Of a DNA stretch of 64,000 nucleotides, positions 13,737 to 19,898 are shown in pieces. Location: NCBI RefSeq assembly GCF_058153355.1, contig NZ_CM177019.1. One strand, 5' to 3'. Under the pieces are notes generated by a model. It did not search any database and was not told the origin of the DNA. It saw only the letters and a program-made list of their open reading frames with translations. Both the position numbers and the translations under genes were made by a program. Every line of letters starts with the position of its first letter. Position 1 is the first letter of the stretch.

Positions 13737-14276
13737 TTATACTTTGTTATTCAAAATCAGTTGCCCGTTGCCATCTAACGGGATCTGCGTACCCGGATCG
13801 CGGTCCATGCGGATTTTGCCCTGCTGATCGCCAATCTTATAGGTCACATCATAACCGAGCATTTTTTCTGACTTGTCATACACCGTTTTACAACGCTGTT
13901 GCGTAGTCGTGTAAGTATCGCTTTCCTGGAGAGAGCCCTGGATCTGGTTACCGGCATAGCCACCTCCCAGCGCCCCCACAACAGTGGCGACATCTTTACC
14001 GCGACCACCGCCAAACTGATGCCCTATCACGCCGCCAGCAACAGCGCCGAGCACCGACCCGGTAATGCGATTTTCATCCTGCACCGGTCGACGATGGGTC
14101 ACTGTGACGTTGCGACACTCCTGACGCGGTGTTTTAACCGTTTCCTTGATTGGGGTTGCAGAAACAACCTGAGCGTATTGCGGGCCACGTTCAAACACGT
14201 TCAGACTGGCCACTGCCGCTACGCCCAACGCAGCTGCGACACCAATCCCCATACCCGCCAACATTGATTTATTCAC
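13737..14276 (-). CDS. ycfJ: Glycine-zipper membrane protein (Rick 17 kDa antigen family)
   Basis: 179 aa with GTG start preceded by GGAGGTG RBS. Confidence 0.8.
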   Translation of the reverse strand: MNKSMLAGMGIGVAAALGVAAVASLNVFERGPQYAQVVSATPIKETVKTPRQECRNVTVTHRRPVQDENRITGSVLGAVAGGVIGHQFGGGRGKDVATVVGALGGGYAGNQIQGSLQESDTYTTTQQRCKTVYDKSEKMLGYDVTYKIGDQQGKIRMDRDPGTQIPLDGNGQLILNNKV

Positions 14277-14402
14277 GGGAACACCTCCTTCTTTGCTGTT
14301 ATGCCAATCATGCAAGTGAAGGAGAAAAGCAGCTATCAGACAGAAGATGAAAAGCGCGGGAATGGCTGGAAATACTTAGGGATTCGGAGGAGTCTGAAGG
14401 AA

Positions 14403-14492
<90 letters not shown>

Positions 14493-14502
14493 TACAAGCC
14501 GA

Positions 14503-15807
14503 TTAATGCAACTTCAAACGTGGACGGATAACGCGGTTAATACTCCCCACCAGCATCATTAATCCGGTTTTAAAGTAACCATGCAGCGCAATCTGATGCA
14601 TTCTGTATAGCGAGATGTATACAAAGCGCGCAATTCGTCCTTCAATCATCATTGAGCCGCGCGTCAGGTTACCCATCAGGCTACCAACGGTGGAGAAATT
14701 CGACAACGATACCAGCGAACCGTGATCTTTATACTGATAATTTTTCAGCGGCTTACCGTTCATCTGCGCCAGAATGTTGTTCATTGCGCAGGTTGCCATC
14801 TGGTGTGCGGCCTGCGCACGCGGCGGAACAAAGCCCCCTTCCGGACGCGGGCATGACGCGCAGTCGCCAATAGCGTATATGTCTGGATCGCGAGTGGTTT
14901 GCAGCGTCGGTTCCACCACCAGCTGGTTGATACGGTTGGTTTCAAGACCACCGATATCTTTCAGGAAGTCTGGCGCTTTGATCCCGGCTGCCCACACCAT
15001 CAGATCAGCCTCAATATATTCACCATCTTTAGTGTGCAGGCCGCCTTCATCAGCACTGGTGACCATGGTTTGCGTCAGCACGCGAACGCCAAGTTTCGTT
15101 AACTCATTATGGGCCGCAGCAGAAATACGTGGCGGCAACGCAGGCAAAATACGTTCGCCCGCTTCTACCAGCGTTACGTTCAGGGCTTCGTTGGTCAGAC
15201 CTTTATAACCGTAGCTGTGCAGTTGCTTGACCGCGTTGTGCAATTCTGCGGAGAGTTCTACACCCGTCGCGCCGCCGCCGACAATCGCAATGTTCACTTT
15301 ACCATTCGCGCCCAGGTTGGCGGAGTATTTCAGGAACAGATTCAGCATCTCCTGGTGGAAACGACGCGCCTGATGCGGGTTATCGAGGAAAATGCAGTTC
15401 TCTTTGACTCCTGGCGTATTGAAATCGTTAGAGGTGCTGCCCAACGCCATTACCAGGGTGTCATAGGCGATTTTACGTTCCGGAACCAGCAGTTCACCTT
15501 TCTCGTCGCGCAGTTCTGCAATAGTGATTGTTTTCGCTTCACGATCAATATCAATGACGGAACCCAGCTGGAACTGGAAACCATGATTGCGCGCATGGGC
15601 CAGATAGCTCAACGCATCGACGCCTTCATCAAGCGAGCCAGTCGCCACTTCGTGCAGCAGCGGTTTCCACAAGTGGCTGTGGTTACGATCGACCAGCGTA
15701 ATTTTGGCTTTTTTCTTGCGTCCCAGCTTATGTCCCAGCTGTGTCGCCATTTCCAGCCCACCAGCACCGCCGCCGACAATCACAATTTTTTTCAATGGCG
15801 TAGTCAA
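14503..15807 (-). CDS. ndh: NADH:quinone oxidoreductase II (NDH-2)
   Basis: Two GxGxxG FAD/NAD folds; start assigned to TTG (MTTPLKK, 434 aa) after AAGGGGG RBS; an in-frame ATG lies 9 codons upstream. Confidence 0.9.
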
Positions 15808-16128
15808 CGTGACCCCCTTAAATTTATTAACCAATTGTTAACTAATAGTTATTAATATAGCTCTTAATTAACAACAGGTTACAGCAATGAAAATGTTCTT
15901 CGTTATTGAGAATAACATGAATGGTGCATTGGTCATACCAAAATTGATGTTAATCAAGTTTTGTTGCTGAAAAGATAGGCTGATTTACCGGATGAGATCA
16001 AAAAATACAGCTTATTGTTTATTATTCAAACGAATTCAGGAGGGTGAGACGTATATGGAGGGCGTTTGGTAGATACTGTTATGGCCTGCAAGTTTTTTTC
16101 TACCCCGGTTTCCCAGATTGCAGGCATG

Positions 16129-17430
<1,302 letters not shown>

Positions 17431-17492
17431 AGAATTTACAGAATCTGGAACGCATCAGGTATCAGCAAGGTTACCTGATGCGACGAGGGCAT

Positions 17493-18035
17493 TTAACCGA
17501 GGGTTTTGAACGCTTTAATGCGCTGCAAATGCGGGGAGATATTCTTGAATTTGTGCGTCTGCTCTTCGTCCCAGACAATCTCGTAATAATGATGCAACTC
17601 TTCAGATGTCCGCTGGCTGTTAAGCGCTTCATCGTTACGCGACAAAATCACCAGACAGCGATCGCGATTCTTCTCGCGGAAGTTGGTCACACACTTAGTG
17701 GCAATATCGGCATACTCTTCCGGGCGATCAATCTTGCCTTCCATGTTCTCATAAGGGAACAAATTAGGATTGAAGATCACCTGGCGGATATCGCAAAGAA
17801 AACCAATTCGCTCCGCCCAGTATCCGCCCAGACCAACGCCGCATATCAGCGGACGCTCATCGACGTTTAGTTGCAGCATTTTGTCCACTTCTTTGAGCAG
17901 ATGCTGCATATCATGTTTCGGATGCCGCGTACTGTAGCTTATCAAGCGTACATCCGGGTCAATAAACTGCAATTGTAAGACTTTCTCGTGGTTACCCGGA
18001 CTGTTAGAGTCAAAACCGTGTAAATAGATAATCAT
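17493..18035 (-). CDS. ycfP: UPF0227 alpha/beta-hydrolase-fold protein
   Basis: 180 aa from [12 protein letters not shown]. Confidence 0.8.
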
Positions 18036-18057
18036 CGCTTCCTCACATAAGCCAGGG

Positions 18058-19898
<1,841 letters not shown>

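What the first reader, a model, noticed from the sequence alone, without database searches (positions are those of the whole stretch)
15808..16070. IS insertion leaves only about 265 bp of native sequence upstream of ndh
The element's right end abuts the ndh upstream region, with the recombinase gene in the same orientation as ndh. ndh has a complex promoter regulated by several factors; distal upstream elements beyond about -265 are now replaced by IS sequence, and read-through from the IS could reach ndh.
Basis: inference. Interest (0 to 1): 0.3.

Follow-up and report, generated by a model that had tools for sequence, protein, structure and literature searches.

The report
IS621 insertion upstream of intact ndh promoter
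A known mobile element (IS621) has inserted at its usual repeat-sequence target 263 bp upstream of the E. coli ndh gene, but the whole mapped ndh promoter lies inside the retained 263 bp, so this looks like an ordinary and probably neutral insertion.

Summary
A 1280-bp IS621-type element (IS110 family) lies on the minus strand at 17350..16071. Native sequence resumes at 16070, and 263 bp (16070..15808) separate it from the ndh TTG start at 15807. The recombinase gene has the same orientation as ndh.

Nothing was replaced. Removing the element in silico restores, without gaps, the empty ycfP-ndh spacer of K-12 and of a near-identical strain. That spacer carries the canonical IS621 target ATCAGGC|CT|AC at the edge of a REP pair. 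The target is asymmetric, so it dictates both the position and the orientation of the insertion.

The ndh transcription start maps to window 15900, which puts the junction at -170. The -10 element, both FNR sites (-50.5 and -94.5), a PdhR-like palindrome and the A/T-rich tract near -123 are all retained. The 40 bp next to the junction are the least conserved part of the spacer.

The element's own promoter is split while it is integrated, and its outward -35 finds no usable -10 in the flank. Read-through cannot be excluded, because no canonical sense-strand terminator lies between the recombinase stop codon and ndh, but nothing here supports it. Only 9 of 5426 complete E. coli genomes carry this insertion.

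The finding is ordinary and of low interest.

The parts
15808..16070 (-). Retained native ndh upstream region (263 bp): the promoter plus a 93-nt leader
   Evidence: Collinear with the empty-site spacers of K-12 and MFDS1022581.
15900..15900 (-). Inferred ndh transcription start (+1)
   Evidence: K-12 Pndh is at 1,165,992 (PMC10301672) and the ndh CDS starts at 1,166,085, giving a 93-nt leader. This agrees with the FNR site at -50.5 (PMC3688515). The -10 element TATTCT lies at 15914..15909.
15944..15957 (-). FNR site I, TTGATTAACATCAA, centred at -50.5
   Evidence: Pattern match; the position is listed in the table of PMC3688515.
15988..16001 (-). FNR site II, with half-site TTGAT, centred at -94.5
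   Evidence: The -94.5 position is recalled from Meng, Green and Guest 1997, which is cited but could not be read.
15930..15940 (-). PdhR-like palindrome TGGTATGACCA (-40..-30), overlapping the -35 region
   Evidence: Pattern match. PdhR repression of ndh is stated in PMC3411108. The box consensus comes from my own knowledge.
16071..17350 (-). IS621-type insertion sequence, 1280 bp, with a CT core at both junctions
   Evidence: Junctions; length; RefSeq relatives annotate it as 'IS110-like element IS621 family transposase'.
16178..17158 (-). IS621 recombinase gene (326 aa, intact)
   Evidence: ORF. Pfam PF01548 DEDD_Tnp_IS110 (1.8e-24) and PF02371 Transposase_20 (3.9e-26), both near full length.
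17159..17350 (-). IS left end, encoding the bridge RNA
   Evidence: 172 of 175 aligned positions match the published IS621 bridge-RNA sequence. The 3 differences lie in the segment between the two target-guide stretches, and both guide stretches are unchanged (reference sequence from the supplement passage).
16071..16177 (-). IS right end, carrying the outward-facing -35 box TTGCAG (16091..16086) of the circle-junction promoter
   Evidence: Joining the right and left ends gives TTGCAG-17 bp-TATTAT (8 of 12). The right end joined to the native flank scores at most 5 of 12. The junction promoter is described in PMC11208160.
16135..16154 (+). Terminator-like hairpin followed by a T7 run, inside the IS right end. 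It is oriented to stop plus-strand (antisense) transcription entering from the ndh side.
   Evidence: One search reports it only for the plus strand. On the minus strand the same hairpin is followed by UGUCUGGC, with no U tract.
17352..17427 (-). REP pair directly abutting the IS left end, downstream of ycfP
   Evidence: Rfam RF02564 naRNA4, 70.9 bits against a gathering score of 59.5, E = 7.7e-12.

Best explanation
An IS621-type element inserted by its normal bridge-RNA-guided route into its preferred target, ATCAGGC|CT|AC. That target forms the outer edge of the last REP unit downstream of ycfP. The site happens to lie 170 bp upstream of the ndh transcription start, which is 263 bp upstream of the start codon. 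The insertion is simple: only the CT core appears at both ends and nothing is deleted. The complete mapped ndh promoter, operator region and 93-nt leader stay contiguous with the gene. The REP pair and ycfP are pushed 1.28 kb further away. Position and orientation follow from the REP target, not from any relationship with ndh. The most likely consequence for ndh expression is none, or a very small one. Shown: the junctions, the target, the absence of a deletion, retention of the promoter elements I could locate, and the absence of a hybrid outward promoter. Inferred: that ndh regulation is unchanged.
For: The junction sequences and the restored 11-bp target are. The gap-free match of the IS-deleted sequence to empty sites is (K-12; MFDS1022581, whose ndh region is 99.8% identical to the window). 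ATCAGGCCTAC is the natural IS621 target and lies within REP elements (PMC11208160). The recombinase domains are intact and the bridge RNA is 98.3% identical to the published one. The start site falls at 15900 by two independent routes (with 11, and 16 with 29), so the junction is at -170. The FNR I and II sites, the PdhR-like box, the -10 element, the Shine-Dalgarno sequence and the predicted ArcA sites (-57 to +68) all lie inside the retained segment. Among 7 Escherichia sequences, 54% of alignment columns vary at -170..-131, against 4% at -50..+50. The circle-junction promoter scores 8 of 12, while the right end joined to the flank scores at most 5 of 12.
Against: No expression data exist for this strain. 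No canonical minus-strand terminator lies between the recombinase stop codon (16178) and the ndh promoter, so transcripts from ycfP or the IS could reach ndh. The positions of the Fis sites (-123, -72, +51) and IHF sites (+26, -17, -58) are recalled from Jackson et al. 2004 and Green et al. 1997, which I could not read. The promoter scan is insensitive and missed the real ndh promoter at its threshold. Unmapped distal inputs cannot be excluded.
Confidence: 0.8

Rival explanations
1. Read-through or interference. Transcripts that start upstream, from ycfP or from weak promoters driving the bridge RNA and recombinase, run out of the IS right end. They then either add ndh mRNA with a long leader or occlude the ndh promoter.
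For: ycfP, the IS and ndh share one orientation. No canonical minus-strand terminator lies between ycfP and ndh. On the sense strand the right-end hairpin lacks a U tract.
Against: The IS promoter is split on integration: the -35 is in the right end and the -10 in the left end. The native flank joined to the left end scores only 5-6 of 12. In the empty site ycfP read-through would already reach ndh, so the IS adds distance rather than a new source. The 41 nt just after the junction are C-rich and G-poor (17 C, 4 G), a composition compatible with Rho loading. That last point is inference only.
Confidence: 0.12
2. Displacement of a distal cis element. Moving the REP pair 1.28 kb away could change local DNA topology or nucleoid-protein binding at the ndh promoter. 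That promoter is sensitive to IHF, HU and Fis.
For: The ndh promoter binds several nucleoid proteins. A REP pair abuts the insertion site.
Against: I know of no report of REP involvement in ndh control. The in vitro and fusion work that defined the regulation relied on sites within about -130. The sequence between the REP and -130 is highly variable and carries a 12-bp indel among strains, which argues against spacing-dependent function.
Confidence: 0.06
3. Hybrid outward promoter. The -35 box in the IS right end could pair with a -10-like hexamer in the flank and create a new promoter firing towards ndh.
For: TTGCAG sits 15 bp (window 16085..16071) from the IS end and faces outward.
Against: With spacers of 15-19 bp the candidate -10 hexamers are ACCAAA, CCAAAC, CAAACG, AAACGC and AACGCC. 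They score at most 5 of 12 and none has T at the last position.
Confidence: 0.02

Closest known systems
IS621 (IS110 family bridge-RNA recombinase element of E. coli)
   Same: It shares the 326-aa DEDD plus Transposase_20 recombinase. The left-end bridge RNA is 98.3% identical to the published one. The donor ends are ACAGTAT-CT and CT-TGTAT, with a CT core. The target is ATCAGGCCTAC inside a REP, and joining the ends reconstitutes the circle-junction promoter.
   Different: It is a sequence variant. [quoted passage not shown] The copy is 97.5-98.9% identical to the copies at the same site in other strains. The location, in the ycfP-ndh spacer, is rare (9 of 5426 genomes).
IS elements that alter neighbouring genes through outward or hybrid promoters (for example IS1, IS2, IS10 and IS3-family junction promoters)
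   Same: An IS end carrying a -35 box faces a downstream gene.
   Different: No usable -10 is present in the flank. The insertion also lies upstream of a complete native promoter rather than replacing it.
The E. coli K-12 ndh promoter (Pndh), repressed by FNR, ArcA, PdhR, IHF and NsrR and modulated by Fis
   Same: The core promoter, both FNR boxes and the leader are the same, with only a few substitutions relative to K-12.
   Different: The region distal to about -130 is 10 bp shorter than in K-12, through a 12-bp indel polymorphism shared with IS-free strains. There is one window-specific A-to-G change at -127.

Membership tests
IS110 family / IS621 | [quoted passage not shown] | tested here: met
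   PF01548 at 86.7 bits and PF02371 at 91.7 bits, both above their cut-offs.
IS110 family / IS621 | No terminal inverted repeats, with a short core dinucleotide at both junctions | tested here: met
   The ends TGTATTATCC and ACAGTATCT are not reverse complements of each other. CT is present at both junctions.
IS110 family / IS621 | Left end encodes the bridge RNA, with target and donor guide segments | tested here: met
   172 of 175 positions match the published IS621 bridge RNA. The guide stretches ATCGGGCC and TTGCGTAG and the donor-loop stretch ACAGTATC are unchanged. No Rfam family matched it, and its expression was not tested.
IS110 family / IS621 | Insertion into the REP target ATCAGGCCTAC | tested here: met
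   The restored empty site reads CTTATCAGGCCTACC. The target is given in PMC11208160.
IS110 family / IS621 | A sigma-70 promoter is reconstituted across the junction of the right and left ends in the circular form | tested here: met
   In silico the junction gives TTGCAG-17-TATTAT. Circle formation itself cannot be tested here.
REP / BIME element | Paired imperfect palindromes of the REP consensus in an intergenic region | tested here: met
   Rfam naRNA4 (a REP-derived family), 70.9 bits against a gathering score of 59.5, at 17352..17427.
FNR-repressed ndh promoter | Two FNR boxes, at -50.5 and -94.5, upstream of a start site 93 nt before the start codon | tested here: met
   TTGATTAACATCAA lies at -57..-44 and a TTGAT half-site at -101..-97.
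IS-driven activation of a neighbouring gene (outward or hybrid promoter) | A functional -35/-10 pair spanning the IS-flank junction, or a complete outward promoter in the IS end | tested here: not met
   The best score is 5 of 12 across spacers of 15-19 bp. No promoter-like site was found in 15600..17700.
IS-driven activation of a neighbouring gene (outward or hybrid promoter) | A measured change in expression of the neighbouring gene | not testable with these tools
   This needs RNA or reporter measurements.

The most novel reading that the evidence does not exclude
The IS621 copy at -170 measurably re-tunes ndh, for example through ycfP or IS read-through transcripts or through uncoupling from the REP pair. 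On that reading, its presence at this one REP on at least two different flank haplotypes would reflect selection rather than target preference.
Probability: 0.08. Interest if true: 0.35.

Novelty: already known. Interest (0 to 1): 0.1.

Why it matters
It matters little as it stands. It is a textbook example of IS621 target specificity, and it shows that an IS lying close to a gene does not imply a regulatory effect. If ndh expression did prove to be altered, it would be a modest natural example of an IS110-family element influencing a respiratory gene. The locus has one practical use. The strain, together with near-identical empty-site relatives such as MFDS1022581, forms a natural pair for testing whether integrated IS621 copies emit read-through transcripts.

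Tried and rejected
1. The Rfam search of 15000..18200 found no bridge-RNA family, only the REP-derived naRNA4 hit and two sub-threshold chance hits.
2. The consensus promoter scan found nothing in 15600..17700, not even the real ndh promoter, so it is insensitive here. I replaced it with explicit hexamer scoring.
It returned only E. coli E69 and E. whittamii because the pattern was too strict. Footprinting is therefore limited to 7 Escherichia sequences.
4. The primary ndh promoter papers (Meng 1997, Green 1997, Jackson 2004, Ogasawara 2007) and the original IS621 paper (Choi 2003) are not held. The Fis and IHF coordinates therefore rest on my memory.
5. No paper mentions IS621 together with ndh.
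6. The supplements of the bridge-RNA paper, as far as they are held, do not contain the K-12/BL21-type ycfP-ndh target string. I cannot say whether this site was hit in their genome-wide insertion assay.
7. The hybrid-promoter idea was rejected on the hexamer scores.

Full report
**What is in the sequence**

All genes in this part of the window lie on the minus strand, in the order nagZ (18058..19083), ycfP (17493..18092), a 326-aa IS110-type recombinase ORF (16178..17158), ndh, and ycfJ (13737..14315). This is the E. coli nagZ-ycfP-ndh-ycfJ arrangement, as annotated in RefSeq relatives.

The ORF lister extends ndh to a TTG at 15834. The annotated 434-aa protein of K-12 and N96 (1305 nt) corresponds to the TTG at 15807, which is preceded by AAGGGGG.

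Read on the minus strand, the left junction is CTTATCAGGC-CT|TGTATTATCC (17352/17350). The right junction is ACAGTAT-CT|ACCAAACGCC, with the last IS base at 16071 and the first native base at 16070. The element is 1280 bp. The stated shared orientation is also correct.

**What the element is**

- RefSeq relatives annotate the ORF as 'IS110-like element IS621 family transposase'.
- The ORF has near full-length PF01548 (DEDD) and PF02371 domains.
- The left end matches the published IS621 bridge RNA at 172 of 175 positions. The three differences, one of them a 1-nt insertion, lie between the two target-guide stretches, and both stretches are unchanged (reference sequence seen).
- Joining the right end to the left end reconstitutes TTGCAG-17 bp-TATTAT. 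This is the circle-junction promoter described for IS621 (PMC11208160).
- Rfam has no family that matches the bridge RNA.

**How it got there**

Deleting the element and one CT in silico gives CTTATCAGGCCTACCAAACGCC. This contains ATCAGGCCTAC, the naturally observed IS621 target, which lies in REP elements and accounted for 74.5% of the insertion sites (129 of 173) in the published genome-wide assay.

The IS-deleted sequence aligns without any gap to two empty ycfP-ndh spacers:
- strain MFDS1022581, with 6 substitutions in about 470 bp; this strain's ndh region is 99.8% identical to the window;
- K-12.

The sequence directly to the left of the IS is a REP pair (Rfam naRNA4, 70.9 bits against a gathering score of 59.5).

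The event is therefore a simple, scar-free insertion at the outer edge of the REP cluster that follows ycfP. The target is asymmetric and is read by two different guide segments, so the orientation of the IS is fixed by the orientation of the REP. The shared orientation with ndh carries no information about ndh. That last step is inference from the mechanism described.

**Where the ndh promoter is**

Two independent routes place the transcription start at window 15900.
- The ROSE study places Pndh of K-12 at 1,165,992 (U00096.3) with -10 TATTCT (PMC10301672). The K-12 CDS starts at 1,166,085, giving a 93-nt leader.
- The FNR ChIP study lists the ndh FNR site at -50.5 (PMC3688515). The perfect box TTGATTAACATCAA at 15957..15944 is centred 50.5 nt upstream of 15900.

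Elements located relative to that start:
- A second box with half-site TTGAT is centred at -94.5. This agrees with my recollection of Meng et al. 1997.
- A PdhR-like palindrome, TGGTATGACCA, lies at -40..-30.
- Predicted ArcA sites lie at -57 and +36..+68 (PMC3411108).
- From memory, because the papers could not be read: the IHF sites are at +26, -17 and -58, and the Fis sites at -123, -72 and +51. An A/T-rich tract is present around -128..-108.

The IS junction is at -170/-171. That is about 35-40 bp beyond the most distal site I know of.

**Conservation**

I aligned seven Escherichia sequences from the REP core to the start codon: the window, N96, MFDS1022581, K-12, 19KM1831, E69 and E. whittamii. 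The fraction of variable alignment columns falls steadily towards the gene:

| Region relative to the start site | Variable columns |
|---|---|
| -170..-131 | 54% (includes a 12-bp indel) |
| -130..-91 | 22% |
| -90..-51 | 12% |
| -50..+93 | 4-5% |

The junction therefore borders the least constrained stretch of the spacer.

**Can the IS drive or disturb ndh?**

- The outward-facing -35 (TTGCAG, 16091..16086) finds only ACCAAA, CCAAAC, CAAACG, AAACGC or AACGCC at spacers of 15-19 bp. The best score is 5 of 12 and none ends in T. No hybrid promoter is formed.
- The native flank joined to the left end scores 5-6 of 12. The integrated element therefore lacks its own strong promoter, consistent.
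- The only terminator-like structure in the right end (16135..16154) has its T run on the plus strand, so it would stop antisense transcription entering from the ndh side. On the sense strand the 8-bp hairpin forms but is followed by UGUCUGGC.

Read-through from ycfP or the IS towards ndh is therefore not excluded by the sequence. In the empty site, however, ycfP read-through would face even less DNA before reaching ndh. The 41 nt after the junction are C-rich and G-poor (17 C, 4 G), a composition compatible with Rho loading; this is inference only.

**Population context**

Only 9 of 5426 complete E. coli genomes carry IS621 in this spacer, all at the same position and in the same orientation.

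They fall on two flank haplotypes:
- The window and N96 share one. Their IS copies are 98.9% identical.
- 19KM1831 (H2, the one I fetched and aligned) has K-12-like flanks, a differently shaped REP and the left half-site ATCAGGT. Its IS copy is 97.5% identical to the window's. H3-H9 are assigned to this haplotype only from their similar overall identity of 94.3-94.4%, since I did not fetch them.

The nearest flank relative of the window (MFDS1022581) has an empty site. This implies either more than one insertion or precise excision. IS110 elements excise scarlessly, so the two cannot be told apart here.

**Verdict**

The regulatory interpretation is only partly supported. This is a known element at its known kind of target, next to an intact and well-characterised promoter. 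I rate it as already known and of low interest. The one open point, read-through, can only be settled by measuring RNA.

Noticed in passing
window 14430-14440 (+ strand): There is a second exact IS621 target, ATCAGGCCTAC, and it is unoccupied. It lies in the REP between the ndh stop codon (14503) and ycfJ, in inverted orientation relative to the occupied site. It is the only other copy of the motif in the 64-kb window.
   Followed up: partly
window 16135-16154 (+ strand), inside the IS right end: A strong terminator-like hairpin (8 pairs, 6 of them G-C) followed by a T7 run points into the IS from the ndh side. It is conserved in the N96 and 19KM1831 copies. It may insulate the recombinase gene or the junction promoter from antisense or upstream transcription.
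   Followed up: partly
window 16027 (-127 relative to the ndh start site): The window has a G within the A/T-rich tract (GTTTGAATAAT) where all six other Escherichia sequences have A. From memory, this lies within or next to the distal Fis site.
   Followed up: no
window 16041/16040 (between -141 and -140); K-12 locus L004: There is a 12-column indel polymorphism in the distal spacer: the extra segment is 10 bp in K-12 and 19KM1831 (tatatcactc / tataccactc) and 12 bp in E. whittamii. It is absent from the window, N96, MFDS1022581 and E69, and it is independent of the IS.
   Followed up: yes
hits H4 (NZ_CP066806.1) and H5 (NZ_CP196255.1): In two of the nine IS621-bearing genomes the match is split into two pieces spanning about 3.15 kb. 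An IS3-family transposase is annotated under the match, so a second IS has landed in or beside the IS621 copy at the ycfP-ndh site.
   Followed up: no
window 17290-17270 (- strand), bridge-RNA target-binding loop: This copy reads CCTTAGGTTTTCAACCTG where the published IS621 reads CCTTGGGTTCTAACCTG: two substitutions and a 1-nt insertion. N96 and 19KM1831 share the variant, and the guide stretches are unchanged.
   Followed up: partly
window 17440-17455 (- strand), REP cluster after ycfP: The window, N96 and MFDS1022581 carry a 9-bp duplication-like insertion (attctgtaa) and a longer second REP stem than K-12 and 19KM1831. The REP cluster itself is therefore polymorphic.
   Followed up: no
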